This document shows, piece by piece, positions 8,707 to 18,626 of a stretch of 35,508 nucleotides of DNA. How positions within the stretch are numbered: position 1 is the stretch's first letter; every line of letters begins with the position of its first letter. This DNA comes from an uncultured Gammaproteobacteria bacterium (lineage in GTDB: Bacteria > Patescibacteriota > Microgenomatia > Levybacterales > GWA1-39-11). The position numbers and the translations under genes are program-made. The DNA lies in assembly GCA_964519355.1 (NCBI GenBank), contig CAZFJW010000002.1, forward strand, positions 1 to 35,508. Reading direction: 5' to 3'. The notes under the pieces were generated by a model that made no database searches, was not told the origin of the DNA, and saw only the letters and a list, made by a program, of their open reading frames with translations.

Positions 8707-9498
8707 ATGGCAATCCCACCTCCAGCTAAGAAAAAAAAGGTTTTTCCCAAGACAAAAAAGGGAATTATCCGCCTTTTTATTGTTCGAACGATTGCAAATT
8801 TTTTAATACTTTTTACTGTCTTTGGAATAATACTTACCTTTGCACCAGCAATTTATTATGAAGTGTCATACCGCATGCTCAAATTGAAGGGGTACGAGTT
8901 TGTGTTATCTGACAATGCACTTGATTCTGAACTCAATAAAATTTTGGATCGTCAAAAAGCACTTGCATCAGGAAGTGCAGAAAAGAGCGAGGAGTTACCT
9001 GATATTTCATTTCTTGAAGCAATCCTTTCTGATGGTACGAGAGCTCAGATTACGCCGAAATCTGTTGATTTCGGAATTGTAATTCCCAAAATCGGTGCGA
9101 ACGAAGAGGTGATAATAAATGTCGATCCTGAAAATCAAGATCAATACAATGAGGTTCTCAAGCACTCTGTTGCGCATGCCAGGGGGTCATCGCTTCCCGG
9201 TCTTGGCGGCTCGACATATCTTTTTGCACATTCAGCCACGACTTTTTGGGATGTAGGGCGGCATAATGCGCTTTTTTATCTCATAAAAGATCTTGAAAAC
9301 GGAGACGATATTGTTGTGTTCTTTGACAGGAAAAGACACAACTATAAAGTGGTAGACAAACAAACGATTGATGCAGAAGACACACATTTTCTTACTACCG
9401 ATAGAGGAGAGGGTGAAGAATTACTCTTGCAGACATGCTGGCCTCCTGGAACCACGCTGAAGCGTCTTGTTGTTATTGCCAAGCCTGTTATAAATTAA
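8707..9498 (+). CDS. Sortase-family transpeptidase
   Basis: It has an N-terminal TM anchor, a catalytic His context (YLFAHS), the LLLQTCWPPG TLxTC-type Cys motif, and a downstream Arg (TLKRLVV). Confidence 0.8.
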   Translation: MAIPPPAKKKKVFPKTKKGIIRLFIVRTIANFLILFTVFGIILTFAPAIYYEVSYRMLKLKGYEFVLSDNALDSELNKILDRQKALASGSAEKSEELPDISFLEAILSDGTRAQITPKSVDFGIVIPKIGANEEVIINVDPENQDQYNEVLKHSVAHARGSSLPGLGGSTYLFAHSATTFWDVGRHNALFYLIKDLENGDDIVVFFDRKRHNYKVVDKQTIDAEDTHFLTTDRGEGEELLLQTCWPPGTTLKRLVVIAKPVIN

Positions 9499-9550
9499 GA
9501 CACTGCATTTCTAATCATAGCTCATAAGAGTTAGCATCATACTTAAAAAC

Positions 9551-9578
9551 TTGACATTTTCTTGTCCTGTAGTATAAT
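9551..9578 (+). promoter_or_regulatory. Near-consensus sigma70-type promoter of the GC-rich unit
   Basis: TTGACA (9551-9556), a 16-nt spacer, then TATAAT (9573-9578). Confidence 0.6.
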
Positions 9579-9634
9579 TCACAATAGCTTTGAGGGATGA
9601 GATACCTCGAAGACTTTCACAGGAGGGATCAGCA

Positions 9635-9751
9635 ATGATCCGTCACAACATCTCGACCAACACGCGCTCCATGAGTGGCTGCCACGACGGCGACGTCGAG
9701 TCGCACCTGCTCGTCCGCGCGACGCCGCCGGCCTTCGCGAATTCCGCGTAA
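9635..9751 (+). CDS. Candidate 38-aa miniprotein (MIRHNISTNTRSMSGCHDGDVESHLLVRATPPAFANSA)
   Basis: AGGAGGG (9621-9627) lies 7 nt upstream of ATG 9635. Hand-counted G+C by codon position is 21/38, 20/38 and 35/38. The ORF is too short for the ORF track. The start codon sits in the loop/3'-arm junction of the hairpin GGATC(9626-30)/GATCC(9637-41). Confidence 0.4.
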   Translation: MIRHNISTNTRSMSGCHDGDVESHLLVRATPPAFANSA

Positions 9752-9956
9752 GAACCCGGCGCCGCCGTAACCCTGTCAGAGCCAGGGAAACGGCACTCCG
9801 GCCCACAAGGCCGGAAACGAGAACGGCGTATTCGTTCACGTGACCCCAAAAGGGTCGCAAATCCAGACGGACTCGTCCGTCACGCGCATCGGGAGATGCA
9901 ACTTCGGGTTCGCCCGCAGGGAGTCTTCCCAACGCTCGAGCCTCCGGGCTCACACC

Positions 9957-9991
9957 GAGGCGGCAGTAACCCTGCCGCCTCTTTCTATTTA
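9957..9991 (+). terminator. Rho-independent terminator
   Basis: GAGGCGGCAG (9957-9966), loop TAACCC, CTGCCGCCTC (9973-9982), then TTTCTATTT. Confidence 0.75.
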
Positions 9992-10004
9992 GAAGACTTT
10001 ACGC

Positions 10005-10678: not shown

Positions 10679-11341
10679 ATGGGGAACGAAAGAGATCCAA
10701 TTTTAATAAAATTACCGCGATCGGCTCTTTATAAAGAACTTGGGGAAATTCCGGCAAAATCATCACGTGTTATGCTCGTATTTGGTGATGTGCCGCAGGA
10801 TTCAAGATATGTTCCACAAGAAGGTGTGTCAATTTATGATTGTCATAAATTTCTCAGTCATGAGTCAGCAAGAATTGCAGGAATTGCTGCGACGAGAGTA
10901 TTAAGAAATGTTGAAAGACAAAAAGAAATTGAGGAGCTTGCGAGGGAACAGAAAAGTCCAATGCGTGATGTAATTAATACCGGGCACGAACCGGCAATAA
11001 AAGCCCCACAACCATCTATTGGTGACATAATAATTATTCTGGGTGGTTTTACTCGGCCGAATTATCCGCCCGAATCCCTTGCTCTTTTTTCTGGGATGCT
11101 CCAAGCAGTTCCAGATCTTGCCAATCTTCGTGGCGTTGACATACATCTGGAAGGGAATGATCGTACGAGTACATATGCCAGTATGGATTTTGCACAACGC
11201 GTTATAGAAGCACAGGAACAAAGCAGGGGTCGGGACTTTGTTGAGTCTGTGTCGCTTGTATGTCCTGCACCTCGTATTCAGGCACTATCTATGGCTGCCA
11301 GAAGAGTGAATCTTCGTATCTCAAATGCTACTTCGCTATAA
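10679..11341 (+). CDS. Hypothetical protein, weakly DUF218-like
   Basis: The track ORF starts at 10640. I prefer ATG 10679 (MGNERDPIL), just after the upstream stop. IIIILGGFTRPNYPPESLA...LEGNDRTSTYASMDFA loosely echoes the DUF218 pattern. Confidence 0.55.
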   Translation: MGNERDPILIKLPRSALYKELGEIPAKSSRVMLVFGDVPQDSRYVPQEGVSIYDCHKFLSHESARIAGIAATRVLRNVERQKEIEELAREQKSPMRDVINTGHEPAIKAPQPSIGDIIIILGGFTRPNYPPESLALFSGMLQAVPDLANLRGVDIHLEGNDRTSTYASMDFAQRVIEAQEQSRGRDFVESVSLVCPAPRIQALSMAARRVNLRISNATSL

Positions 11342-11342
11342 A

Positions 11343-12446
11343 TTAGGCTGCAAGGTTGAATCTTTGATCCTGATACGGTCTGGCGAGAATTCTTCCTACT
11401 TTATCTAGTAATTTTGGTTGATATAAAATTCCCATGTGTGTTCCGCCCACTTCAGTTGCTTGGTTCGGATTTTGTGGCTGAGGAACTGTAGAATCGCCTT
11501 CTGTGTAAAAAGTTACAATTTCAATTCGCGGGTCCGGTCCACGAAGTGCATAATCGATCATCATTTCTTCAAGAACTGAAAATCCATCATATTTTTCTGA
11601 ACGCATTGGATCTTCGCTCATTCTTTTTTGAGCGATTCCATGCACGAGCCCCATTACTCCATTTGGCCGGCGTGCTGCGCTGCTAAATTCAGAAATGGTA
11701 TCTTGGGTAATTTCAGGACTTCCGCCCTTTATAACCGTATTTACAATCGGTCTGCCATGTTTTTGCAGCAGATGGTCAGCGGCAAGCTCCATGAACATGC
11801 CTCCAGCTGAAAGTCCAATTCCTGTAACTTCACGATTCCCCGCCTGAAATTCCAGTGTCTCTACAAGATTGAAAAAAGTTTCGGTTTGTAATTCATTGGG
11901 CTCATCATACCCGAACATTACATCATGTCCAAGCCTCTCGACCCATCTGTTAAAAGGAACAAGAAAATCATTTGATTTAATTCCAATCATAGCCTGCATC
12001 GCACTAAGATTAAGATTGCGAATGTTATGAATTGATTGAAAGAGTGTCTGGGAGAAAGGATCCTGCAAAAAAGCTGAGTATGGTTCTTGTATATAGTCTT
12101 CAAGTGCTTCGATCAGGTATTCCGGAGGGGGAGAGAATCCATTGGCAACAACAACTTTTTTGGGGTAGTCTCTAGATAATCCTTCACCAAAAAATATTCT
12201 TCTCATTTCAGTGTCAGAAGAAATGGGCATTTTATTGAATTTTTCCAGCTGCATTCCTGTTATTGCGCCTTCATTCGCCATAGAGCCAAGTAATAGTCCT
12301 ACTTCTGTTCTTCGAAAAGGAATTTCGAAAGGAGCCATGTAGGGATCAAATGTTTTTTCTTGAGAGGAGGGTGAAGACCTGAGAAAAGAAGGATTAAAAC
12401 CTGTATCGGCCTGAGGGGGAGGACCAAGTGTTTCTGTCCTACTCAT
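11343..12446 (-). CDS. Alpha/beta-hydrolase-like protein (esterase/lipase/thioesterase type)
   Basis: 367 aa with a GxSxG-like elbow GIGLSAGGMF and AT-biased third codon positions like the rest of the genome. Its stop lies 1 nt from the stop of the convergent gene. Confidence 0.6.
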   Translation of the reverse strand: MSRTETLGPPPQADTGFNPSFLRSSPSSQEKTFDPYMAPFEIPFRRTEVGLLLGSMANEGAITGMQLEKFNKMPISSDTEMRRIFFGEGLSRDYPKKVVVANGFSPPPEYLIEALEDYIQEPYSAFLQDPFSQTLFQSIHNIRNLNLSAMQAMIGIKSNDFLVPFNRWVERLGHDVMFGYDEPNELQTETFFNLVETLEFQAGNREVTGIGLSAGGMFMELAADHLLQKHGRPIVNTVIKGGSPEITQDTISEFSSAARRPNGVMGLVHGIAQKRMSEDPMRSEKYDGFSVLEEMMIDYALRGPDPRIEIVTFYTEGDSTVPQPQNPNQATEVGGTHMGILYQPKLLDKVGRILARPYQDQRFNLAA

Positions 12447-12465
12447 AAAAAATGCCTATTCTTGA

Positions 12466-12493
12466 ATCATATGCTTATCAGAGGATTTGTCAA
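12466..12493 (-). promoter_or_regulatory. Putative promoter of the hydrolase-like gene
   Basis: The minus strand reads TTGACA (12493-12488), a 16-nt spacer, then TATGAT (12471-12466). Confidence 0.5.
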
Positions 12494-12531
12494 GAAGGTA
12501 ATTGGAATTACAGATAGAAATTGAGGAATAT

Positions 12532-12542
12532 TGTAATATAAT
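12532..12542 (+). promoter_or_regulatory. Putative -10 region for the GC-rich cassette
   Basis: TGTAATATAAT includes TATAAT at 12537-12542. The -35 is weak. The GC-rich sequence starts within about 10 nt downstream. Confidence 0.35.
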
Positions 12543-12641
12543 CACCAGAGAACAAGAGTTTGAAGTGTGGCGTGCGGTCTCTGACTGCTGCCACAGGGAG
12601 AATGCTCGTTACCAATTCGTGATGAAGGAGAGGACTTTCTT

Positions 12642-12965
12642 ATGTCGATCTACTATCCCAAGCACCATGAGTGCGGTGGGGAGATCCAGATGTGGCCGAA
12701 GGGTTTTGGCCTGTGCCTATTGTGCGGATATCGCATCAAGCCAGCCGAAGCTCCCGATCCCAAATGGAGAGAGTTCAGTGTGATCCACATCCATCCGCCG
12801 ATCACCCAAGAAGTCTTGGATGAGACTGATTCGTTCAACGAGGAGCACCGGCAGAGACTTGATCTCGCCGGCCTCACGCCGAATCTCATCCCAGCAGTTC
12901 TTGAGATCGATGCGCAAAACCTTGAAGGCAGGGCTCAGTTGCCCTTTCTTCGGCCATCCGAGTAG
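12642..12965 (+). CDS. Miniprotein A (107 aa) with a zinc-ribbon-like HxxC...CxxC motif
   Basis: GAAGGAGAGG (12624-12633) lies 8 nt before ATG 12642. The sequence reads KHHECGGEIQMWPKGFGLCLLCGYRI. Hand-counted GC3 is 70/107. Confidence 0.6.
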   Translation: MSIYYPKHHECGGEIQMWPKGFGLCLLCGYRIKPAEAPDPKWREFSVIHIHPPITQEVLDETDSFNEEHRQRLDLAGLTPNLIPAVLEIDAQNLEGRAQLPFLRPSE

Positions 12966-12974
12966 GAGGCTGGG

Positions 12975-13223
12975 TTGGCGCTATCGCAAAATGGTCGGGG
13001 GCATGTTGTCCTGATTCTTGAAGACTTTGAGGTCGTGGCTCTTCCGCCATTTACTCGAAGAACCATCAGTTCAGAACTTGCCGAATTTATCGCGCAGCAC
13101 GCGCGAAGGACTCGGCTCAATGGAGACTGGAGAGATCGTGACCATCATGCCACAACCGGTGCGAACACCGGGGCCGTCCCTGCCGGGACTCATTCCTGGG
13201 ATCATTCCCAGGCCCCGGCGTAA
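12975..13223 (+). CDS. Candidate miniprotein B1 (82 aa, TTG start)
   Basis: AGGAGG (12964-12969) lies 5 nt before TTG 12975. The N-terminal half looks protein-like (HVVLILEDFEVVALPPFTRRTISSELAEFIAQHARR). It overlaps alternative frames from 13120 onward. Confidence 0.4.
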   Translation: MALSQNGRGHVVLILEDFEVVALPPFTRRTISSELAEFIAQHARRTRLNGDWRDRDHHATTGANTGAVPAGTHSWDHSQAPA

Positions 13224-13326
13224 TCCGACGCGTCCGCATGAACCGCGTCCTCGTCCAGGCGATCCCCAGGGACCAACGTTCCCTGCAGATCCGCCGCCAG
13301 GTGAACCGCCTTCAAGGAGGGGTTAG
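13120..13326 (+). CDS. Candidate Pro-rich miniprotein B2 (alternative frame)
   Basis: GAAGGA lies 9 nt before ATG 13120, and the TAG stop abuts ATG 13327. However, GC3 is only 12/30 over 13219-13308, which argues against this frame in its 3' part. Confidence 0.25.
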   Translation: METGEIVTIMPQPVRTPGPSLPGLIPGIIPRPRRNPTRPHEPRPRPGDPQGPTFPADPPPGEPPSRRG

Positions 13327-13330
13327 ATGA
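13238..13330 (+). CDS. Candidate 30-aa ORF B3 (MNRVLVQAIPRDQRSLQIRRQVNRLQGGVR)
   Basis: This frame has the highest GC3 locally (26/29 over 13223-13309). Its TGA overlaps the next ATG (ATGA at 13327-13330). No obvious SD. Confidence 0.3.
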   Translation: MNRVLVQAIPRDQRSLQIRRQVNRLQGGVR

Positions 13331-13449
13331 GTTGTCCACATTGTCTCGGGCGTATCCTGCGTGAAGCAGGACGCATGCCGCAAATCGGCGGAAATAATAC
13401 TCCGCCTCAACAGCCGTCAACACCACCTCCTCCCAAGGAGAAAGACTAA
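13327..13449 (+). CDS. Candidate miniprotein C (40 aa) with an N-terminal CPHC knuckle
   Basis: AAGGAGGGG lies 5 nt before ATG 13327. The product is MSCPHCLGRILREAGRMPQIGGNNTPPQQPSTPPPPKEKD. GC3 is low (17/40), so the call is uncertain. Confidence 0.4.
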   Translation: MSCPHCLGRILREAGRMPQIGGNNTPPQQPSTPPPPKEKD

Positions 13450-13450
13450 C

Positions 13451-13615
13451 ATGGGAATGACCGTTCCGCCACCAAGAGTATGTCGCAAGTGCCTGAGTGC
13501 GCTTGAGACGTACATTGCCGCGAATCGCCCCGGAGTTCCCACCTGCACTGGTTGCGGGTGGAGAATCGGGCCGAGAAGGTCTCGAAAGAGAAAAAGGAAT
13601 CGAGGGGATCCCTGA
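13451..13615 (+). CDS. Miniprotein D (54 aa): CxxC-x17-CxxC zinc ribbon with a basic tail
   Basis: AAGGAGAAAG lies 6 nt before ATG 13451. The product is MGMTVPPPRVCRKCLSALETYIAANRPGVPTCTGCGWRIGPRRSRKRKRNRGDP. An in-frame GTG at 13361 is an alternative start (track ORF 13361-13615). Confidence 0.55.
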   Translation: MGMTVPPPRVCRKCLSALETYIAANRPGVPTCTGCGWRIGPRRSRKRKRNRGDP

Positions 13616-13833
13616 TGCCTGCCATTCAAGGGCCACCGCCAAAATTTTGTCCCAAATGTCATGGGACGATGATTGTCGAGCACGACTGGCACGGTACCTA
13701 CGGGTACTGTATTTTGTGCGGTTATCACCACGAGGTGCTGACCTCGCCGCCTATCGATCTGGCGGCAGAAGAGGCGGCGCTGCCTCAGCGTCAAAGGAGG
13801 CGTATGCCCTCACATGCCAAGCAGCGGCTTTAG
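13615..13833 (+). CDS. Miniprotein E (72 aa): CxxC-x16-CxxC zinc ribbon
   Basis: GAGGGG lies 7 nt before ATG 13615, which overlaps the previous stop (TGATG). The sequence reads MPAIQGPPPKFCPKCHGTMIVEHDWHGTYGYCILCGYHH... The track ORF 13552-13833 is in the same frame. Confidence 0.6.
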   Translation: MPAIQGPPPKFCPKCHGTMIVEHDWHGTYGYCILCGYHHEVLTSPPIDLAAEEAALPQRQRRRMPSHAKQRL

Positions 13834-13857
13834 GGCCTGCACCATTCATCACGCCAA

Positions 13858-13884
13858 TGCTCCCCCGCCGCCAGCGGGGGAGCA
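13858..13884 (+). terminator. GC-rich hairpin terminator closing the cassette
   Basis: TGCTCCCCCGC (13858-13868), loop CGCCA, GCGGGGGAGCA (13874-13884): 11 perfect bp. An AT/T-rich tract follows a few nt later (CTAATATTTTTATAATTT). Confidence 0.7.
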
Positions 13885-14145
13885 CCATCTAATATTTTTA
13901 TAATTTCCGAGGAATTTTTAGTCCTCATCACTATAACCAGTACAAAGTAGAACAAGGAACTTTTCATAGAAAAAAATTCGCGCCTGGTTCGTCCCATAAC
14001 AACATTTAAAATTCCATTTTTAGCTATAAAAATTGCGCCGTTTTCGGTGAAAACAGGCGCATAATAAAAGTGATTCACTTGTACTAAATAGACACTACTT
14101 TGTATCAGTTGACCCTACCAGTAGTGTTGCGCATATAATGACTAC

Positions 14146-14411
14146 GTTCTTTCTTAATCCAGCTAATGAGGTAGTAACATACTTCATCTTCGGGACTAGA
14201 AGGTAATGCCAGAACACCCGGGGGCTACTGCCCACCCGGGAGCCGGCGAAGTTAGGATAGAAGTGCCGTCTTTATGTCTACGAGCTTGATACATAAAGAC
14301 AAATAGTAAAAACGTAAGTTGTCGTTACTTTTTACATTATGGTTACTTACTGTCCAAAAAATTTAACTCGATATTATTACAAAAACCAGCCATAGTTGTG
14401 CTGGTTTTTTT
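14146..14411 (+). ncRNA. Candidate structured leader or small RNA upstream of the TasA-like operon
   Basis: A possible promoter is TTGACC (14109-14114)...CATATAAT (14132-14139). Hairpins lie at 14217-14240 (GC-rich, bulged A), 14268-14300 (10-bp perfect inverted repeat) and 14306-14335 (11 bp). A terminator follows at 14381-14411. No convincing ORF and no riboswitch class recognised. Confidence 0.35.
14381..14411 (+). terminator. Rho-independent terminator (A-tract/hairpin/T-tract, potentially bidirectional)
   Basis: AAAAACCAGC, a 9-nt loop, then GCTGGTTTTTTT. It sits 70 nt upstream of ATG 14482. Confidence 0.7.
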
Positions 14412-14481
14412 GTGTTCGAAAAAGGGCCTATATGCCTACATATAGGAATAAATAACTTTACAGAAAGGGGGTGAAAATAAA

Positions 14482-15063
14482 ATGATAAATAGAAGAATAA
14501 TAGCAAGCGGACTTTCAATCGTCTCAGCACTCGCAGTGATGGGAGGAGCGACATTCGCTTTCTTTACAAGTACTGCATCAAGTACCGACAACGTTTTTGC
14601 TAGTGGAAATATGACTTTGCAATTAGACGATAACGATGACGTCACGCCTGCATCAACAATTGACGCTTCATTTGGTGATGGAGATCTGGCACCAGGAGAC
14701 ACAACTTCTGGTTTTATTTCAATGCATAATGGTGGAAATATCGCGATTGCTGAAGTCAATTTGGGTTCAAATCAAACTGTAACAAGTTCTCCTGATTTGG
14801 CAACTAGATTGAATATTACCTCAGCAAAAATTGGTAATGATTCGACATGCTCAACTGGTGATGTTAATATCTCTGGAAGCTTCACAACTCTAGCTGCATT
14901 AGATGCTGCTGATTTGGATTTGCCAAGCTCTGCTTTGGCTCCTGGAGCAACAAGATATCTTTGTCTTACATTCCAGTTTGATCCTACTTCTGACGACACG
15001 TTTCAAGGAAAGACAATTACTGAAACGTTCACATTTGTGGGGCATCAAGATGCGTCTCAATAA
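14482..15063 (+). CDS. TasA/camelysin (M73)-superfamily secreted protein with a SipW-type signal peptide
   Basis: AAAGGGGGTG lies 9 nt before the ATG. The N-terminus LAVMGGATFAFFTSTASSTDNVFASGNMTL matches the TasA/CalY signal plus mature N-terminus pattern (GTFAxF(S/T)...N.F..G). The body has DLAPGD, NGGN and FQG...F.F motifs typical of the family. Confidence 0.8.
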   Translation: MINRRIIASGLSIVSALAVMGGATFAFFTSTASSTDNVFASGNMTLQLDDNDDVTPASTIDASFGDGDLAPGDTTSGFISMHNGGNIAIAEVNLGSNQTVTSSPDLATRLNITSAKIGNDSTCSTGDVNISGSFTTLAALDAADLDLPSSALAPGATRYLCLTFQFDPTSDDTFQGKTITETFTFVGHQDASQ

Positions 15064-15070
15064 AAAAATC

Positions 15071-15106
15071 GGTCGGAGAGACGGTGCCTACTCCTTCTCT
15101 CCGACC
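15071..15106 (+). promoter_or_regulatory. Intercistronic stem-loop without a T-tract (possible attenuator or mRNA-stability element)
   Basis: GGTCGGAGAG (15071-15080) pairs perfectly with CTCTCCGACC (15097-15106), directly after the TasA-like stop codon. Confidence 0.45.
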
Positions 15107-15205
15107 TACGATGGCACATTTAGTTTGAGATATTAAAAGACATTTGTCAATAGAATGATGTAGTTAGGGGACTTCGGAGAAAAACTTCTCCTTGGTTCGG
15201 TAATT

Positions 15206-15796
15206 ATGTCACACACAACTGCCCATAAAATTGTGCGGGGAACCATTAAGGTTCTTCATATCAAATTAACTATCCTTGCATTTATACTGCTGCCCATTGC
15301 AGTCTTTACTCTTATTACGTCAAAGACTGACAGAATCGGCGGAATTCAGTCCTTTGTCGTTCTGACTGGTTCTATGACTCCTAATATTCCACAGGGAAGC
15401 GTTATTTTTACGAAAAAAGCACATGCTTATTCTGAAGGCGATGTAATTGCTTTTAATTCAAATGGACGCAATATCACCCACAGAATTGCAAAAGTAGAAA
15501 ACCTCAATGGTGATGTATATTTCCAGACCAAAGGAGATGCCAATAATGTCGCAGATTCAGACTTGGTAAATATTAATGATATTGTCGGGAGGTCACAGCT
15601 GCATCTTCCATATATAGGCAAGGTTATTTTATTTCTTAAGACTATTCAGGGATTTTTGGTGATGATAGTTGCTCCCTCGCTTATCTTTATCGGGATGGAA
15701 TTGTGGGCTATAAAGCGTGAAATCGAACGAGAAACAGAAAAAAAGGTATTAAGACGAATTTCGGAACAGCAGGTATCAAATGTTGTTGTTAGTTAA
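15206..15796 (+). CDS. sipW: Signal peptidase I, SipW/archaeal-ER type (S26B)
   Basis: Motifs VVLTGSMTPNIPQGSVIF (catalytic Ser box), GDVIAF, ITHRI (catalytic His) and KGDAN, plus a C-terminal TM helix. Confidence 0.85.
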   Translation: MSHTTAHKIVRGTIKVLHIKLTILAFILLPIAVFTLITSKTDRIGGIQSFVVLTGSMTPNIPQGSVIFTKKAHAYSEGDVIAFNSNGRNITHRIAKVENLNGDVYFQTKGDANNVADSDLVNINDIVGRSQLHLPYIGKVILFLKTIQGFLVMIVAPSLIFIGMELWAIKREIERETEKKVLRRISEQQVSNVVVS

Positions 15797-15824
15797 ATCT
15801 AACCCTGAAGTGCAAGATGTGTAA

Positions 15825-16310
15825 ATGAAGAAAAACAGGGTAAAAATATTAGTATTATTAATGCTTTTGGCAGGATCTGCGTCCTTTAGTATAACTCGTG
15901 CCTTTTTTACGAGCAGTGCACAGTCACAGAATAATACATTTTCAGCCAAAGAATTTTTCCCAAGATCCGCACCTATTTATGTAAGTAATCCTTTCACATG
16001 TGCAACTGGCGCAACAGATACTTCAACTCAAAAAGGAACTGTCACTTTTGATAAGAACCCTACGACATTTGATATATCGATTAGCGTGACGAGCGCAAGT
16101 GCAAATACCCAGTATCAGCTATGGGTTAATCAAGACCCTGGGGCATGTCCTTTGGGTGCGCCTACCGTTCCCTCTTTCCTCACAACTGATGGAGATGGTA
16201 ATGGTTCAGGAACGTTGTCAGGTCATGGAATAGTGGGAGGAGCAGCAAATTTCTGGATATCCTTAGTCGGCGGATCTGATGTATTTCGGAGCACGGCTGT
16301 GAATTTTTAA
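15825..16310 (+). CDS. Small secreted protein with a SipW-type signal peptide
   Basis: MKKNRVKILVLLMLLAGSASFSITRAFFTSSAQSQNNTFSA shares the AFFTS...N(N/V)FxA motif with the 14482 gene product. Confidence 0.7.
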   Translation: MKKNRVKILVLLMLLAGSASFSITRAFFTSSAQSQNNTFSAKEFFPRSAPIYVSNPFTCATGATDTSTQKGTVTFDKNPTTFDISISVTSASANTQYQLWVNQDPGACPLGAPTVPSFLTTDGDGNGSGTLSGHGIVGGAANFWISLVGGSDVFRSTAVNF

Positions 16311-16311
16311 T

Positions 16312-17427
16312 ATGAAAAGACTTTTTAGAATAACAATGTTTTTCTCGCTTATTGCGATAATTACTGCCCAGACGCAGGATCTGCAGCGGGCAATTTCAAA
16401 TGCTGTAGAAGGATTCAAACCTGTCGAAACCGCCTACGCTATTGGAGGACTGAGTGTTAATTGGGGAGTTCCAGAGGGAAATCCAATATTTACCATATCA
16501 GGTGCCGCTCCGGGTCAAGATGAGGCACGAAGTGTGCTTGTTACGAATGGTGATATAGTTTCACTTCCTGTTGCAATAAAGGGTAAAAATCTTACATCAT
16601 CTGGGGGACTCGAGACAGTCCTGGATCTCAAAATTTCACAAGGTGGAGTTGATATATACGGAGGCACATCTCCAACAGGTCCTAAAACGCTTGCACAATT
16701 TATGACCGATTCGCTAAATCCAAATGGAATCTCCCTTTCAACAATTGGTGCAGGTTTGAACGAGACGTATGATATTACAGTTACATTTCTAGCAAGTGCG
16801 GGGAATGAATACCAAAATACTGATGTTGAATTCGATCTTGTTATCGGAATTTTAACTGATATTCCCGTCGAGTGTTCTTTTATAGATATGACCGGAAAAT
16901 TCCCAATTTTTGGAACGGGTGCCAGTGAAAAAATAAAAGGCACAACAGGATCTGATGTGATTTTCGGACTTGGCGGTAATGACAAAATTTATGCAAAGGG
17001 AGGGCGTGATTGTGTAATCGGAGGAGCGGGAGAAGATCAAATACATGGTGAGACAGGAGATGATGTACTTTTTGGAAATGAAGATGAGGACACGGTTGAT
17101 GGCGGGACTGGAAGCGATCTTATTTATGGAGGAGCAGGAAATGATGAAGTTGACGGTGAGTCAGGAGATGACATGGTAAATGGCGATGGTGGAGATGACA
17201 AGGTAGATGGTGGAAGCGGAAGAGATATTCTGCATGGTGGAGATGGAGCAGATGAAATGGATGGAGGAGCAGGTAATGATGATATATATGGGGAGAATCA
17301 AGCAGATATTCTGGACGGCGGTGCCGGAAATGACTTGCTTGTGGGAGGAGCTGACAGTGATAAATTGAATGGTCAGGCAGGACGTGATACATGCACAGGA
17401 GAGATTAAGAAAAATTGCGAGTTATGA
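16312..17427 (+). CDS. Secreted protein: TasA-like N-terminal domain fused to an RTX-type calcium-binding repeat region
   Basis: Signal/anchor MKRLFRITMFFSLIAIITA. The N-domain has APGQD...VLVTNGD...AGNEYQNTDVEFDLVIG. Then come 18 consecutive nonamers of GGxGxDxxx type (GLGGNDKIY, GGAGEDQIH, GGTGSDLIY...). Confidence 0.75.
   Translation: MKRLFRITMFFSLIAIITAQTQDLQRAISNAVEGFKPVETAYAIGGLSVNWGVPEGNPIFTISGAAPGQDEARSVLVTNGDIVSLPVAIKGKNLTSSGGLETVLDLKISQGGVDIYGGTSPTGPKTLAQFMTDSLNPNGISLSTIGAGLNETYDITVTFLASAGNEYQNTDVEFDLVIGILTDIPVECSFIDMTGKFPIFGTGASEKIKGTTGSDVIFGLGGNDKIYAKGGRDCVIGGAGEDQIHGETGDDVLFGNEDEDTVDGGTGSDLIYGGAGNDEVDGESGDDMVNGDGGDDKVDGGSGRDILHGGDGADEMDGGAGNDDIYGENQADILDGGAGNDLLVGGADSDKLNGQAGRDTCTGEIKKNCEL
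16912..17397 (+). repeat. Tandem 27-nt (nonapeptide) RTX repeat array inside the CDS
   Basis: Residues 201-362 parse into 18 in-register 9-aa units beginning GTGASEKIK and ending GQAGRDTCT. Confidence 0.75.
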
Positions 17428-17519
17428 GAAGGCAAAAAGTATGAAGCGCAAAGTAAGGAAGTAATTTTTAACTTAATACTTTTTACTTTTAAATTTTTTG
17501 AAAGGAGGTGAATAAAATT

Positions 17520-18119
17520 ATGACAATACGAACAAAAATTACAGCAGGTCTGTCTGCTGCTGCAATGTTTTCAGCTATTGCTGCGCCAGCTGCATTTGCG
17601 GCTACAACAGTTGATATCTCTGGAAATGGAGCAGGATCAAAAAATACTGTAGAGTTAACTGGGTCAAATTCTGACAAACTCGTACAGAAAAATAGCACAA
17701 CCGTTGTGACATCTATTGTTGCCAAGTCAAACACTGGCGGCAATAAAGCAAACGGAAATACCAATGGAGATGTAACAATCTCTACAGGGGACGCAACAAC
17801 GGAAGTTGCTGTTATGGTAGGAGGAGGAAGCAATGAGGCTACATTGCCTGATTGCGGCTGCGCGCCAGAGGATTTGGATGTAACAATCTCTGGTAACGGA
17901 AAGGATTCTGATAATAAAGTAAAGAAGTCAGATACAAATACCAAAACTACCAAACAAAAAAACAAGACAGCTGTTACAGCTGCTGTTACGGCCAAAGCCA
18001 AAACCGGAAAAAATAAAGCAAATAACAATACTGGTCCAGGTGCAGTTGACGTAACAACTGGTGAAAGTAATACATCAGTAGGCGTACAAGTTGACGGTGC
18101 CACAAACACACTCAACTAG
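17520..18119 (+). CDS. Secreted Asn/Gly/Thr/Lys-rich protein with two tandem ~75-aa modules
   Basis: AAAGGAGGTG (17501-17510) lies 9 nt before ATG 17520; the track start at 17508 is a GTG inside the SD. The signal peptide ends AAFA. Both modules carry ISGNGxxSxN...K(S/A)(N/K)TG(G/K)NKAN(G/N)NT(N/G)...V(T/D)(I/V)(S/T)TG(D/E). Confidence 0.7.
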   Translation: MTIRTKITAGLSAAAMFSAIAAPAAFAATTVDISGNGAGSKNTVELTGSNSDKLVQKNSTTVVTSIVAKSNTGGNKANGNTNGDVTISTGDATTEVAVMVGGGSNEATLPDCGCAPEDLDVTISGNGKDSDNKVKKSDTNTKTTKQKNKTAVTAAVTAKAKTGKNKANNNTGPGAVDVTTGESNTSVGVQVDGATNTLN

Positions 18120-18198
18120 TTTTTCTTGAGCATTCCCGCTCCGAGTCGACCGGGGCGGGAGCTCATATCTTGGAAAAAGCGGGAGGTGAATTTTAAAA

Positions 18199-18555
18199 AT
18201 GAATATTAAAACAAAGATCACAAGCGGAGCAGTTACCGGAGCGCTCCTTATAACATGCGTTGCTCAAAGCGCTCACGCTTCAGTGGAAATAAAAGGAAAC
18301 GGGTCAGGATCTAACAACTCTATATCAATTTCTAAGAGTTCGTCTGTTGGAATTTCACAATCTAACTCTAATTCGATCTCAAGTTCTGTCACAGTGAAAT
18401 CAAATACTGGCGGAAACAAAGCGAACAACAATACAGGGGGAAATGTGTCAATTCATACTGGCAGTTCCAAAACAACTGTAAAAATAAAAAATAATGTCGG
18501 CGGTAACGCCATTTCAGGCTGGCTGAAAAGCTGCTGGAATTGGTTTTGCTGGTAG
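18199..18555 (+). CDS. Secreted single-module paralog of the 17520 gene, with a Cys/Trp-rich tail
   Basis: GGGAGGTG SD. Signal peptide ...AQSAHA. The module is IKGNGSGSNNSI...VKSNTGGNKANNNTGGNVSIHTGSS. The C-terminus is GWLKSCWNWFCW. Confidence 0.7.
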   Translation: MNIKTKITSGAVTGALLITCVAQSAHASVEIKGNGSGSNNSISISKSSSVGISQSNSNSISSSVTVKSNTGGNKANNNTGGNVSIHTGSSKTTVKIKNNVGGNAISGWLKSCWNWFCW

Positions 18556-18566
18556 ACTTTAGGCAG

Positions 18567-18612
18567 AGAAAGGATCAGCCGCACTGCTGGTCCTTTCTTT
18601 TTGCCTTTTTTT
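18567..18612 (+). terminator. Rho-independent terminator of the fibre/matrix cluster
   Basis: AGAAAGGATCAGC (18567-18579) pairs with GCTGGTCCTTTCT (18586-18598), followed by TTTTGCCTTTTTTT. Confidence 0.75.
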
Positions 18613-18626
18613 AGCGTGAAAGGCAT

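What the first reader, a model, noticed from the sequence alone, without database searches (positions are those of the whole stretch)
14482..18555. TasA-like/SipW-type peptidase cluster with RTX and repeat proteins: candidate surface-fibre or matrix system
Six co-oriented genes make up the cluster:
- a TasA/camelysin-like protein with the SipW-cognate signal (GGATFAFFTST...NVFASG);
- a SipW/archaeal-type signal peptidase I (GSM Ser box, THRI His box);
- a second small protein with the same signal type (TRAFFTSS...NTFSA);
- a TasA-like domain fused to 18 RTX nonamers;
- two Asn/Gly-rich repeat proteins with classical signal peptides.

The cluster is bracketed by terminators at 14381-14411 and 18567-18612.

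Established knowledge: in Bacillus, the tapA-sipW-tasA operon builds biofilm fibres, and TasA-superfamily subunits also form archaeal bundling pili by donor-strand exchange.

Inference: this cluster may encode an uncharacterised fibre or adhesin apparatus on a CPR-like cell. Such an apparatus would be plausibly relevant to host attachment. The major subunit has the strongest SD and a downstream stem-loop.
Basis: partly seen in the sequence, partly recalled or inferred. Interest (0 to 1): 0.7.

Follow-up and report, generated by a model that had tools for sequence, protein, structure and literature searches.

The report
TasA-like surface fibre gene cluster
This is a gene cluster from an uncultured "candidate phyla radiation" bacterium that most likely builds a protein fibre related to the Bacillus biofilm fibre TasA; the main building block is swapped for very different versions between near-identical strains, as in pilins or flagellins that are under attack.

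Summary
Six co-oriented genes lie at 14482-18555.

- g1 passes the curated thresholds for Peptidase_M73/TasA and for the SipW-cognate signal.
- g2 passes the archaeal-type signal peptidase I threshold.
- g4 is a TasA-like jelly roll (hhalign 97.9%; Foldseek hit to the TasA fibre) fused to 18 RTX nonamers.
- g5 and g6 are paralogous Asn/Gly-rich secreted proteins.

The four-gene core g1-g4 is syntenic in at least 10 Microgenomates-type (Levybacteria-like) loci.

New findings:
1. g3 carries only the TasA signal and donor-strand motif, followed by an unrelated domain, like TapA. g4 has the acceptor domain but no donor motif. This suggests a polar fibre, g3-(g1)n-g4.
2. In four relatives the peptidase is fused to the g3-like substrate.
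3. The g1 mature domain is a hypervariable cassette. Seven alleles at the same locus share 24-43% identity. They sit between near-invariant blocks: codons 1-28 are identical in six loci, and the 3' hairpin block in four. One strain's flanks are 97.7-99.5% identical to the window.
4. The Asn/Gly-repeat protein belongs to a large unannotated family (2317 representative clusters), often but not always next to the cluster.

Verdict: a new variant of a known kind, the TasA-superfamily donor-strand fibres. Interest is moderate to high.

The parts
14378..14414 (+). Upstream intrinsic terminator (hairpin plus U7). It marks the 5' boundary of the unit.
   Evidence: RNA fold -14.6 kcal/mol, z -2.96. Conserved in L013, L015, L017, L018 and L019.
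14425..14462 (+). Short promoter-proximal segment holding a 20-nt palindrome (14428-14447). In six sister loci a roughly 105-140-nt hairpin-forming leader sits here instead.
   Evidence: Alignment of the 5' regions. The L017 leader folds at -50.1 kcal/mol, z -3.2, and has no Rfam match.
14463..14566 (+). 5' invariant block: the Shine-Dalgarno sequence GAAAGGGGGTG plus g1 codons 1-28 (signal peptide through the predicted A26|F27 cleavage site and F28).
   Evidence: Coding nt 1-84 are 100% identical in the window, L013, L014, L015, L017 and L019, although the flanks are only 85-93% identical in several of these.
14482..15063 (+). g1: TasA-like major subunit (193 aa) with a SipW-type signal and a donor-strand motif (FFTSTASSTDNVFASG).
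   Evidence: PF12389 47.7 bits. TIGR04088 20.4 bits. The family profile hits TasA 5OF1/8AUR at E 2.5e-8. Strong SD.
14567..15060 (+). Hypervariable cassette: the mature jelly-roll domain of g1.
   Evidence: No nucleotide match between loci over about 14600-15045, while both flanks match. The seven alleles share 24-43% aa identity (one close pair 88%), against 72-95% in residues 1-40.
15061..15126 (+). 3' invariant block: the g1 stop codon plus an 11-bp-stem hairpin (15071-15106) with no U tract. It is probably an mRNA stabiliser or attenuator, and possibly a recombination anchor.
   Evidence: 100% identical in the window, L013, L017 and L018. One compensatory A-U to U-A change is seen in L016. 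Fold -24.6 kcal/mol, z -3.47.
15206..15796 (+). g2: SipW/archaeal-type signal peptidase I, with two hydrophobic stretches (likely TM segments), S56 (GSM), H92 (THRI) and GDANN...D.
   Evidence: TIGR02228 94.7 bits (cut-off 51.85) and NF046067 100.8 bits. It is fused to the g3-like substrate in L005, L007, L008 and L011.
15825..16310 (+). g3: minor subunit carrying only the SipW-type signal and donor-strand motif (TRA|FFTSSAQSQNNTFSA), followed by an unrelated domain of about 115 aa. It is the TapA-like initiator or end subunit.
   Evidence: The g1-family N-terminal profile hits it at E 1.9e-5 among 704 ORFs and hits every g3-position protein in the relatives. BLASTP against the g1 N-terminus gives 0.002. 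The mature part has no Pfam or PDB relative.
16312..17427 (+). g4: N-terminal hydrophobic helix (residues 2-34), a TasA-like acceptor jelly roll (about residues 45-185; nt 16444-16866), 18 RTX nonamers (residues 205-366; nt 16924-17409) and a conserved ...DTC...CEL end. There is no donor-strand motif.
   Evidence: hhalign against the g1 family: 97.9%, E 4.3e-13. AF2 pLDDT 89.8. Foldseek finds CyaA RTX and the TasA fibre 8aur_A. PF00353 135.7 bits. No g4-position protein scores better than E about 2.5 against the N-terminal profile.
17520..18119 (+). g5: secreted Asn/Gly-rich protein with two repeats of about 85 aa and a conserved CxC between them. Strong SD.
   Evidence: Family alignment A4. 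At least 197 homologues have no Pfam domain. The family has 2317 representative clusters. Three of four sampled homologues lie directly downstream of a TasA cluster.
18199..18555 (+). g6: one-repeat paralogue of g5 with a Trp/Cys-rich C-terminus.
   Evidence: BLASTP against g5 gives 1e-11. An orthologue is present in L013.
18565..18625 (+). Double hairpin terminator that closes the unit.
   Evidence: The terminator scan finds a 15-pair stem. Fold -31.7 kcal/mol, z -4.44.

Best explanation
The cluster encodes a TasA-superfamily extracellular fibre that assembles by donor-strand exchange, together with its own dedicated SipW-type signal peptidase.

Proposed mechanism:
1. g1, g3 and g4 are exported by Sec.
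2. g2 (SipW) cuts g1 and g3 after the invariant Ala (g1 A26|F27-F28; g3 A|FF). This frees an N-terminal strand (FFTS...N.F.A) that corresponds to TasA residues 28-38.
3. The strand inserts into the jelly roll of the next subunit, so g1 polymerises head to tail into the shaft.
4. g3 has the donor strand but no jelly roll. In relatives it carries a Pro/Thr linker and a lamin-tail domain (LTD). It can therefore only start or cap the acceptor end, as proposed for TapA.
5. g4 has the jelly roll but no donor strand, so it can only take the last free strand. It would terminate the other end, carrying a Ca2+-dependent RTX beta-roll (replaced by LTD or Asn/Gly repeats in relatives). If its N-terminal helix is not cleaved, it would also tether the fibre to the membrane, like TafF of haloarchaeal tafi.

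Expression signals fit this stoichiometry. The strong SD and the 3' hairpin of g1 suit an abundant shaft subunit. The weak SDs of g2-g4 suit an enzyme and minor subunits.

The exposed g1 core is exchanged between strains by homologous recombination at two near-invariant flanking blocks. Phage or partner-cell selection is the presumed driver. g5 and g6 are abundant secreted partners of unknown role.

Shown here: family memberships, synteny, motif distribution, the fusions and allele replacement. Inferred: cleavage, polymerisation, polarity, Ca2+ dependence and any role in attachment.
For: Family membership:
- g1 passes PF12389 and TIGR04088, and g2 passes TIGR02228, all above cut-off.
- The g1 family profile hits TasA 5OF1/8AUR at E 2.5e-8, with ...ATFASGTLDL aligned to ...NVFASGNMTL.
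- A26, F28, N37, F39 and G42 are invariant in 38 homologues. They correspond to TasA P1 Ala, P2' Phe29 and Phe39, the donor-strand contacts described in PMC9674648.

Minor subunits:
- The g4 N-domain is TasA-like and lacks the motif.
- g3-position proteins in 10 loci carry the motif and then diverge straight after it.
- Peptidase-substrate fusions occur in L005, L007, L008 and L011. Pfam confirms S26 plus LTD in L008 and L011.

Conservation:
- The core is syntenic in different genomic neighbourhoods.

Expression signals:
- SD strengths and the 3' hairpin.

Allele replacement:
- A mosaic patch in g2 of L017 is identical to L015.

Published precedents:
- TapA donor strand: PMC9674648 and PMC10151520.
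- TafF as a TM helix plus jelly-roll anchor, TafC as tip, TafD as peptidase: PMC12337348.
- Tip, minor and anchor genes in AbpX loci: bioRxiv 10.64898/2026.01.04.697558.
Against: - No multimer model or experiment shows strand insertion, cleavage at A26|F27 or fibre formation.
- g1 is far below the TasA equivalog score (21.4 against 450) and g2 is below the Bacillus SipW equivalog score (100.8 against 190). They are family members, not orthologues.
- g3 does not reach TIGR04088.
- Whether the g4 N-terminal helix is an anchor or a cleaved signal is unresolved. A conserved (A/V)-x-A precedes its first strand.
- The interchangeable C-terminal modules of g4 look more like an adhesin than an anchor, so the polarity is open.
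- The window lacks the upstream leader that six sister loci have, so its expression may differ.
- In L017 the peptidase carries a stop at codon 93.
- One g5 homologue lies away from any TasA cluster.
- The g5 model is poor (pLDDT 49.7).
Confidence: 0.7

Rival explanations
1. The products form a released biofilm or matrix scaffold, as B. subtilis TasA and P. abyssi AbpX lattices do, and not a cell-anchored appendage. g4 would be a secreted Ca2+-responsive cross-linker, and g5/g6 would be further matrix proteins. The assembly chemistry is the same as in the best explanation, but the biological role differs.
For: TasA and AbpX are matrix proteins. g4 is acidic (16.4% D+E) and rich in RTX repeats. 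No sortase or LPXTG signal was seen among the six genes, whose products are the TasA-like proteins, the peptidase and the repeat proteins.
Against: g4-family proteins all keep an N-terminal hydrophobic helix. Sortases lie beside the cluster in L003 and L011. Strain-level hypervariability of the shaft subunit is more typical of cell-surface receptors than of shared matrix.
Confidence: 0.25
2. g5 and g6 are not part of the fibre system. They would form an independent module of secreted, disulfide-bonded repeat proteins that often happens to sit next to the cluster.
For: The L020 homologue lies after DsbA-DsbB-sortase with no TasA gene within 7 kb. L001, L005 and L008 have the core cluster without such a gene. 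g5 and g6 have their own strong SDs and 80-nt spacers.
Against: Three of four homologues sampled by sequence alone lie immediately downstream of the RTX gene. The same holds in L007 and L013. The repeat is fused to the C-terminus of the g4-like protein in L004 and L006. No + strand terminator was found between g4 and g5.
Confidence: 0.35
3. g1 is a camelysin-type (M73) secreted metalloprotease and the cluster is a protease or RTX exoprotein locus, not a fibre system.
For: The Pfam family name is 'Camelysin metallo-endopeptidase'.
Against: g1 has no HExxH motif and only two His residues. The family's solved member is the non-enzymatic TasA jelly roll. No ABC or MFP type I secretion genes accompany the RTX protein among the six cluster genes or the MreC-PBP2 genes downstream, and the protein has an N-terminal rather than a C-terminal export signal.
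Confidence: 0.04
4. The apparent hypervariability of g1 is an artefact (chimeric metagenome assemblies, or paralogous loci mistaken for one locus), or it reflects decay of a dispensable gene.
For: Most allele contigs are short (1.4-4 kb) and come from metagenomes.
Against: There are seven intact ORFs from independent NCBI, ENA, JGI and Logan assemblies. All are PF12389 members. All match the same window coordinates on both sides. The breakpoints are identical, at codon 28 and at the stop codon. The P0057 allele was recovered in two different assemblies (L013, L014).
Confidence: 0.05

Closest known systems
Bacillus subtilis tapA-sipW-tasA operon (TasA fibres; PMC9674648, PMC10151520)
   Same: - The major subunit belongs to PF12389 and has a SipW-type signal with Ala at P1 and Phe at P2'.
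- A dedicated Ser/His signal peptidase is encoded next to it.
- A minor protein resembles the major subunit only in its N-terminal donor strand.
   Different: - The gene order differs.
- g3 has no homology to the TapA body.
- There is an extra acceptor-only TasA-like subunit fused to RTX repeats.
- g1 and g2 are well below the Bacillus equivalog scores.
- g1 is much smaller than TasA (about 167 aa mature) and lacks TasA's long inserts.
- The host is a CPR bacterium.
- The shaft subunit is hypervariable.
Haloarchaeal Tat-fimbriae (tafi: TafA/E pilins, TafC tip, TafF anchor, TafD signal peptidase; PMC11821415, PMC12337348)
   Same: [quoted passage not shown] That last protein resembles the N-terminal two thirds of g4.
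   Different: - Tafi are archaeal, and many are Tat-dependent.
- Tafi loci include the DUF5305 accessory protein and a regulator, which were not seen here.
- Tafi have no RTX module.
- g1 is closer in sequence to bacterial TasA than to TafE.
AbpA/AbpB bundling pili and AbpX loci (PMC9245690; bioRxiv 10.64898/2026.01.04.697558)
   Same: - They belong to the TasA superfamily.
- AbpB is proposed to give the first donor strand and to carry distal adhesin domains.
- AbpX loci encode minor subunits, tips, signal peptidase I and anchors.
- Calcium is involved in assembly.
   Different: - The g1 family matches AbpX only weakly (E 0.036-0.057).
- AbpX peptidases have ten TM helices.
- In AbpX calcium is bound at the strand-groove interface. 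Here the only Ca2+ motif is the RTX roll of g4.
Chaperone-usher pili (FimH/PapG tip, PapH terminator): analogy only
   Same: The polymer is polar and built by donor-strand exchange. Its specialised end subunits lack either the donor strand or a usable groove.
   Different: The fold family is unrelated, no chaperone or usher is involved, and those pili belong to a diderm envelope.
Allelic pilin, flagellin and S-layer cassettes (for example P. aeruginosa pilA groups and Neisseria pilE; PMC3950515)
   Same: The N-terminal export and assembly segment is conserved while the exposed domain is hypervariable and is exchanged by recombination.
   Different: The filament type is different. No silent cassettes were found in the 35.5-kb window. 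The variation is seen between strains, not within a clone.

Membership tests
TasA / Peptidase_M73 superfamily (g1) | Match to PF12389 above the gathering score | tested here: met
   47.7 bits against 22.5, covering residues 5-192 of 193.
TasA / Peptidase_M73 superfamily (g1) | Detectable relationship to the solved TasA jelly roll | tested here: met
   The family profile hits 5of1_A at E 2.5e-8 and 8aur_A at E 3.8e-8 over positions 33-191.
TasA / Peptidase_M73 superfamily (g1) | SipW-dependent signal (TIGR04088), with Ala at P1 and an aromatic residue at P2' | tested here: met
   20.4 bits against 19. A26 and F28 are invariant in 38 homologues.
TasA orthologue (NF046066 equivalog) | Score of at least 450 bits | tested here: not met
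   21.4 bits. g1 is a superfamily member, not an orthologue of B. subtilis TasA.
TasA-type donor-strand fibre | The N-terminal strand of subunit n completes the beta-sheet of subunit n+1 | not testable with these tools
   No multimer prediction was available. Only the conserved motif and the alignment to TasA residues 28-46 are shown.
SipW / archaeal-type signal peptidase I (g2) | TIGR02228 above cut-off, with a Ser-His (not Ser-Lys) catalytic pattern | tested here: met
   94.7 bits against 51.85. GSM (S56) and THRI (H92) are in the translation.
SipW / archaeal-type signal peptidase I (g2) | Bacillus SipW equivalog NF046067, at least 190 bits | tested here: not met
   100.8 bits.
SipW / archaeal-type signal peptidase I (g2) | Encoded next to its substrates | tested here: met
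   It is adjacent to g1 and g3 here and in at least 10 relatives. It is fused to the g3-like protein in four loci.
TapA-like initiator (g3): function, not homology | An N-terminus resembling the major subunit's donor strand, on a non-TasA body | tested here: met
   The g1 N-terminal profile hits g3 at E 1.9e-5 (profile positions 24-41) and all g3-position proteins at E 4.7e-10 to 4.2e-5. The body has no M73 match.
TapA-like initiator (g3): function, not homology | Sequence homology to TapA itself | tested here: not met
   No Pfam or NCBIfam hit beyond chance. No PDB hit.
TasA-like domain in g4 | Profile-profile and structural similarity to TasA | tested here: met
   hhalign 97.9%, E 4.3e-13, 130 columns. 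Foldseek finds 8aur_A at E 1.2e-3 and 5of1_B at probability 0.99. A direct PF12389 match is absent.
RTX repeat proteins (g4 C-terminus) | Tandem GGxGxD nonamers matching PF00353 | tested here: met
   135.7 bits in 7 stretches. There are 18 nonamers in register. The beta-roll model has pLDDT 94-98 over residues 221-370. CyaA RTX is the top Foldseek hit.
RTX toxins / T1SS substrates | C-terminal secretion signal with adjacent ABC, MFP and OMF genes | tested here: not met
   None of the six cluster products or the MreC and PBP2 products downstream matches a T1SS family. The protein has an N-terminal hydrophobic helix. NF033943 scores 91 bits against 1000.

The most novel reading that the evidence does not exclude
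The fibre is the cell-cell or host-attachment organelle (or the main phage receptor) of these ultra-small bacteria. Its shaft subunit is kept as a population-wide library of interchangeable cassettes. The two near-invariant blocks (SD plus codons 1-28, and the stop codon plus hairpin) would serve as dedicated recombination anchors. Any strain could then swap the exposed jelly roll, by uptake of DNA and homologous recombination, while keeping the peptidase site, the donor strand and both end subunits. That would be a pilin-type variation system on a donor-strand (TasA-type) filament, which has not been described.
Probability: 0.3. Interest if true: 0.8.

Novelty: new variant of a known kind. 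Interest (0 to 1): 0.6.

Why it matters
How candidate-phyla-radiation bacteria hold on to surfaces or partner cells is largely unknown outside a few cultured Saccharibacteria with type IV pili. This cluster offers a concrete, conserved and testable candidate for Microgenomates-type lineages: a self-contained donor-strand fibre with its own peptidase.

It also adds three points of general interest for the TasA superfamily:
- A division of labour that can be read from sequence, with a donor-only subunit and an acceptor-only subunit.
- Natural fusions of the signal peptidase to its substrate, which argue strongly for the enzyme-substrate pairing.
- Strain-level cassette replacement of the shaft subunit, which implies strong diversifying selection at the cell surface.

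The Asn/Gly-repeat proteins form a large family (2317 representative clusters) that has no annotation at all.

Tried and rejected
- A profile scan of GTDB genomes with the broad g1 alignment failed because no conserved stretch was found. The narrower alignment returned only five loci.
- The single metagenome DNA scan with the invariant 5' block found one contig only.
- The AlphaFold2 model of g5 was too poor (pLDDT 49.7) to use for fold search.
- PDB sequence searches found nothing for the g3 body or for the Asn/Gly family.
- TIGR04088 does not detect the g3-type signals even at E<=10, so a custom profile was used instead.
- Rfam found nothing in the GC-rich stretch upstream or in the leader of sister loci. 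I checked this because c-di-GMP riboswitches are, to my knowledge, found upstream of related genes in Firmicutes.
- No second copy of either invariant block exists in the window, so no silent cassette lies within 35.5 kb.
- The camelysin-protease and RTX-toxin readings were rejected: there is no HExxH motif, no T1SS gene was seen, and the export signal is N-terminal.
- The reading of the 12.5-13.9 kb GC-rich region as a non-coding RNA was rejected, because substitutions favour third codon positions of small Zn-ribbon ORFs.

Full report
**1. What is there**

The window has about 38% G+C. Six + strand ORFs occupy 14482-18555. I call them g1 to g6:

| Gene | Coordinates | Length |
|---|---|---|
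| g1 | 14482-15063 | 193 aa |
| g2 | 15206-15796 | 196 aa |
| g3 | 15825-16310 | 161 aa |
| g4 | 16312-17427 | 371 aa |
| g5 | 17520-18119 | 199 aa |
| g6 | 18199-18555 | 118 aa |

- The ORF list starts g5 at a GTG at 17508. The ATG at 17520 behind AGGAGGTGA is the likelier start.
- A hairpin with a U7 tail lies at 14378-14414, and a double hairpin at 18565-18625. Both fold much better than shuffles (z -3.0 and -4.4).
- Downstream come mreC, a putative mreD (no family match) and a PBP2-type transpeptidase.

**2. Family assignments**

- g1 matches Peptidase_M73 (the TasA/camelysin family) end to end at 47.7 bits (cut-off 22.5). It also matches the SipW-cognate signal model TIGR04088 at 20.4 bits (cut-off 19).
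- A profile of 38 homologues hits the solved TasA structures 5OF1 and 8AUR at E 2.5e-8 and 3.8e-8. It hits archaeal AbpX only weakly.
- g1 is not a TasA orthologue: it scores 21.4 bits against the equivalog, whose cut-off is 450.
- g2 passes the archaeal-type signal peptidase I model at 94.7 bits (cut-off 51.85) and is best matched by the Bacillus SipW model, though below that model's cut-off. Its GSM (S56) and THRI (H92) boxes are visible in the translation.
- g4 has 18 RTX nonamers in perfect register at residues 205-366.
- g3, g5 and g6 match nothing in Pfam or NCBIfam.

**3. The N-terminal half of g4 is a TasA-like jelly roll**

- BLASTP against g1 is not significant and Pfam is silent.
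- Profile-profile comparison of 23 g4-family N-domains with the g1 family gives 97.9% probability, E 4.3e-13, over 130 columns. It aligns the family hallmarks APGD...N.G and AGN.[YF]Q...F.F.
- The AlphaFold2 model is confident (pLDDT 89.8). It shows a helix at 2-34, a disordered linker at 32-43, a beta-sandwich at 47-180, then 18 strands of period nine.
- In the Foldseek search of the PDB, CyaA RTX blocks come first. The best non-RTX hit is the TasA fibre 8aur_A (E 1.2e-3, probability 1.0). The TasA monomer 5of1_B also appears.

**4. Conservation in relatives**

- Homologues of g1 (63 found; the named ones are Candidatus Levybacteria and Candidatus Roizmanbacteria) and of g4 (26 found; one is named 'Patescibacteria group') all come from uncultured bacteria.
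- In every longer contig examined, the order TasA-like, peptidase, g3-position protein, g4-like protein recurs: L001, L003, L004, L005, L006, L008, L010, L011, L012 and L013. L007, a Levybacteria MAG, has a permuted order.
- The flanking genes differ between lineages, so the cluster moves as a unit.
- The C-terminal module of the g4-like protein is interchangeable. It is RTX here and in L003, L007, L008 and L010-L013. It is a lamin-tail domain (LTD) in L001. It is an Asn/Gly repeat of the g5 type plus LTD in L004 and L006.

**5. Who carries the donor strand**

Published work on TasA:
- The mature N-terminus (residues 28-38, with F29, I32 and F39) is the strand donated to the next subunit.
- TapA resembles TasA only in that N-terminal strand and is proposed to supply the first strand (PMC9674648; also PMC10151520).

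In the g1 family:
- A26, F28, N37, F39 and G42 are invariant.
- The segment NVFASGNMTL aligns with TasA ATFASGTLDL.
- By analogy, cleavage is predicted at A26|F27, leaving Phe at P2'. The title and abstract of PMC10269814 (listed) describe a P2' Phe as the feature that makes TasA a SipW substrate rather than a LepB substrate.

I built an HMM from residues 1-45 of the g1 family and searched all 704 ORFs of the window and the loci:
- It finds every g1-type protein.
- It finds every g3-position protein (E 4.7e-10 to 4.2e-5; window g3 E 1.9e-5, matching TRAFFTSSAQSQNNTFSA).
- It finds no g4-type protein.
- In the g3 proteins the similarity stops straight after the motif. Relatives continue with a Pro/Thr linker and an LTD. 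The window lineage continues with an unrelated domain of about 115 residues.

So three classes can be read from sequence:
- g1 has both the strand and the acceptor domain.
- g3 has the strand only.
- g4 has the acceptor domain only.

The simplest reading (inference) is a polar polymer, g3-(g1)n-g4.

**6. Peptidase-substrate fusions**

- In L005, L007, L008 and L011 the peptidase gene is long (396-539 aa).
- The donor or cleavage motif sits inside the protein at about residues 180-245, followed by an LTD.
- Pfam confirms Peptidase_S26 at the N-terminus and LTD at the C-terminus in L008 and L011. In L008 it also gives a weak M73 N-terminal match at residues 204-231.
- In these lineages the last membrane helix of the peptidase would double as the signal peptide of its own substrate.
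- This is independent 'Rosetta stone' evidence that g2 processes the g3-type proteins.

**7. The shaft subunit is a hypervariable cassette**

Seven proteins in the g1 search share the window's N-terminus but little else. Their contigs are the same locus, because DNA on both sides matches the window at the same coordinates.

Protein identity of the window against the syntenic 21-kb contig L013:

| Protein | aa identity |
|---|---|
| PBP2 | 96% |
| g2 | 94% |
| MreC, g3 | 91% |
| g4 | 90% |
| g6 | 80% |
| g5 | 78% |
| g1 | 40% (88% in residues 1-40, 27% in the rest) |

- L017 is 99.5% identical to the window upstream and 97.7% identical downstream at the nucleotide level. Its mature g1 is only 27% identical and 27 residues longer.
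- Across the seven alleles, mature domains share 24-43% identity, apart from one close pair.
- The boundaries are sharp. Coding nucleotides 1-84 are identical in the window, L013, L014, L015, L017 and L019, even where the flanks are only 85-93% identical. At about 12% background divergence some ten differences would be expected.
- Identity returns exactly at the stop codon with a roughly 65-nt block containing the 15071-15106 hairpin. That block is identical in four loci and shows one compensatory pair change in the most distant one.
- In L017, a patch of 12 differences from the window in nucleotides 31-72 of g2 is identical to L015, so the locus is a mosaic.
- The window's own allele is the widespread type. 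It is 63-70% identical to g1 in lineages whose g2 and g4 are only 34-52% identical to the window's.

I read this as allele replacement by homologous recombination at conserved anchors, under diversifying or frequency-dependent selection. That is the pattern expected for an exposed filament shaft. Assembly artefact is unlikely, since the seven ORFs are intact, come from four data sources and share breakpoints. No second copy of either anchor exists in the window. What I see is therefore between-strain polymorphism, not shown to be programmed switching.

**8. Expression signals**

- g1, g5 and g6 have long SD sequences. g2, g3 and g4 have weak or no SDs, and g4 starts one nucleotide after the g3 stop codon.
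- The hairpin after g1 has no U tract. It is more likely an mRNA stabiliser or partial attenuator than a full terminator.
- The g2 start codon lies within a predicted hairpin (15157-15210, z -3.2).
- Together these fit a high shaft-to-accessory ratio (inference).

**9. g5 and g6**

- g5 has a classical signal ending AFA, two repeats of about 85 residues (ISGNG.GS.N...Q.N...NTGGNKANGNTGG.V.I.TG) and an invariant C-x-C between them. g6 is a one-repeat paralogue.
- The family is large and wholly unannotated. At least 197 homologues have no Pfam domain. In the 50% identity library there are 2317 representative clusters, 792 of them at E<=1e-30, and many are 400-500 aa with two to six matched stretches. 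There is no PDB relative, and the AF2 model is poor.
One lies after DsbA-DsbB-sortase near mreC, with no TasA gene nearby (L020).
- The repeat is also fused to g4-like proteins (L004, L006) and forms multi-repeat proteins beside a sortase in L003.

I conclude that g5 and g6 are frequent but separable partners. Their role is unknown.

**10. Comparison with known systems, and novelty**

- PF12389 homologues were already counted in Patescibacteria (PMC9245690).
- TasA-superfamily loci with a dedicated peptidase, tip, minor subunits and anchors are described for Bacillus, ABP, tafi and AbpX.
- The closest architectural analogue of g4 is TafF, a membrane helix plus jelly roll that is proposed as an anchor. 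The closest analogues of g3 are TapA and AbpB.
- Full-text searches found no paper that discusses TasA fibres in candidate phyla radiation bacteria or describes a hypervariable TasA-type subunit.
- Five features are new here: the CPR-specific five- or six-gene architecture, the acceptor-only subunit with swappable RTX, LTD or Asn/Gly modules, the peptidase-substrate fusions, the cassette-type hypervariability of the shaft, and the link to a large unannotated repeat family.

This is a new variant of a known kind, not a new kind.

**11. Limits**

- Cleavage, polymerisation, polarity, Ca2+ dependence and any role in attachment are inferred, not shown.
- It is unresolved whether the g4 helix anchors the protein or is removed. 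It is also unresolved which end of the fibre faces the cell.
- The window lacks a roughly 105-140-nt hairpin-forming leader that six sister loci have.
- One sister strain has a stop codon in the peptidase. The locus may therefore be switched off or decaying in some strains.

Noticed in passing
window 12560-13890: A GC-rich island (about 56% G+C against about 38% elsewhere) has no long ORF but carries several tandem small + strand ORFs with CxxC...CxxC zinc-ribbon motifs (12642-12965, 13327-13449, 13451-13615, 13615-13833). It is conserved at about 88% in L013 and L015. Substitutions are biased to third codon positions and the main ORFs have no indels, so it is coding, not a large RNA. There is no Rfam hit, and only a sub-threshold Zn_ribbon Pfam match.
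   Followed up: partly
window 14425-14462, compared with L013 6553-6690 and L017 557-694: Six sister loci carry a roughly 105-140-nt leader with a GC-rich extended hairpin (-50 kcal/mol, z -3.2, no Rfam family) between the upstream terminator and the g1 SD. The window has only about 38 nt there, containing a 20-nt palindrome (CCTATATGCCTACATATAGG). L018 has a different hairpin sequence at the same place. It could be a regulatory leader or a small inserted element.
   Followed up: partly
L017 1521-2111 (orthologue of window 15206-15796): In the strain whose flanks are 97.7-99.5% identical to the window, the SipW gene has AGA changed to TGA at codon 93, directly after the catalytic His (THRI becomes TH*I). 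This is a pseudogene, a sequencing error or a recoding event; I cannot tell which.
   Followed up: partly
L005 7677-8867; L007 4637-5866; L008 7599-8879; L011 4240-5859: The signal peptidase is fused in one ORF to its presumed substrate (internal FAFFS...N.F motif, then a lamin-tail domain). This implies self-cleavage in cis.
   Followed up: yes
L013 4242-6167: Relative to the window (between 13888 and 14041), L013 carries a 1.9-kb insertion with a 580-aa minus-strand ORF that has no Pfam match. This is a second variable spot just upstream of the fibre cluster.
   Followed up: no
L020 4108-7606; L003 1482-7692; L011 7723-9011: Asn/Gly-repeat proteins recur next to sortases, and in L020 next to DsbA/DsbB. 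This fits the invariant CxC and hints at disulfide-bonded, possibly wall-linked, proteins. Multi-repeat forms of 400-730 aa exist.
   Followed up: partly
L012 1699-3153; L007 1903-4505: There are other TasA-like architectures in relatives. One is an M73 N-terminal region fused to a von Willebrand A domain (484 aa). Another is three TasA-like paralogues (458, 285 and 193 aa) in a single Levybacteria locus.
   Followed up: no
window 15157-15210: A predicted hairpin (-22.1 kcal/mol, z -3.2) includes the g2 start codon and the bases just upstream. It may keep peptidase translation low.
   Followed up: no
window 9001-10000, 11001-13000 and 28001-29000: There are further local G+C rises (0.44-0.50) in the composition profile. 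They were not examined.
   Followed up: no
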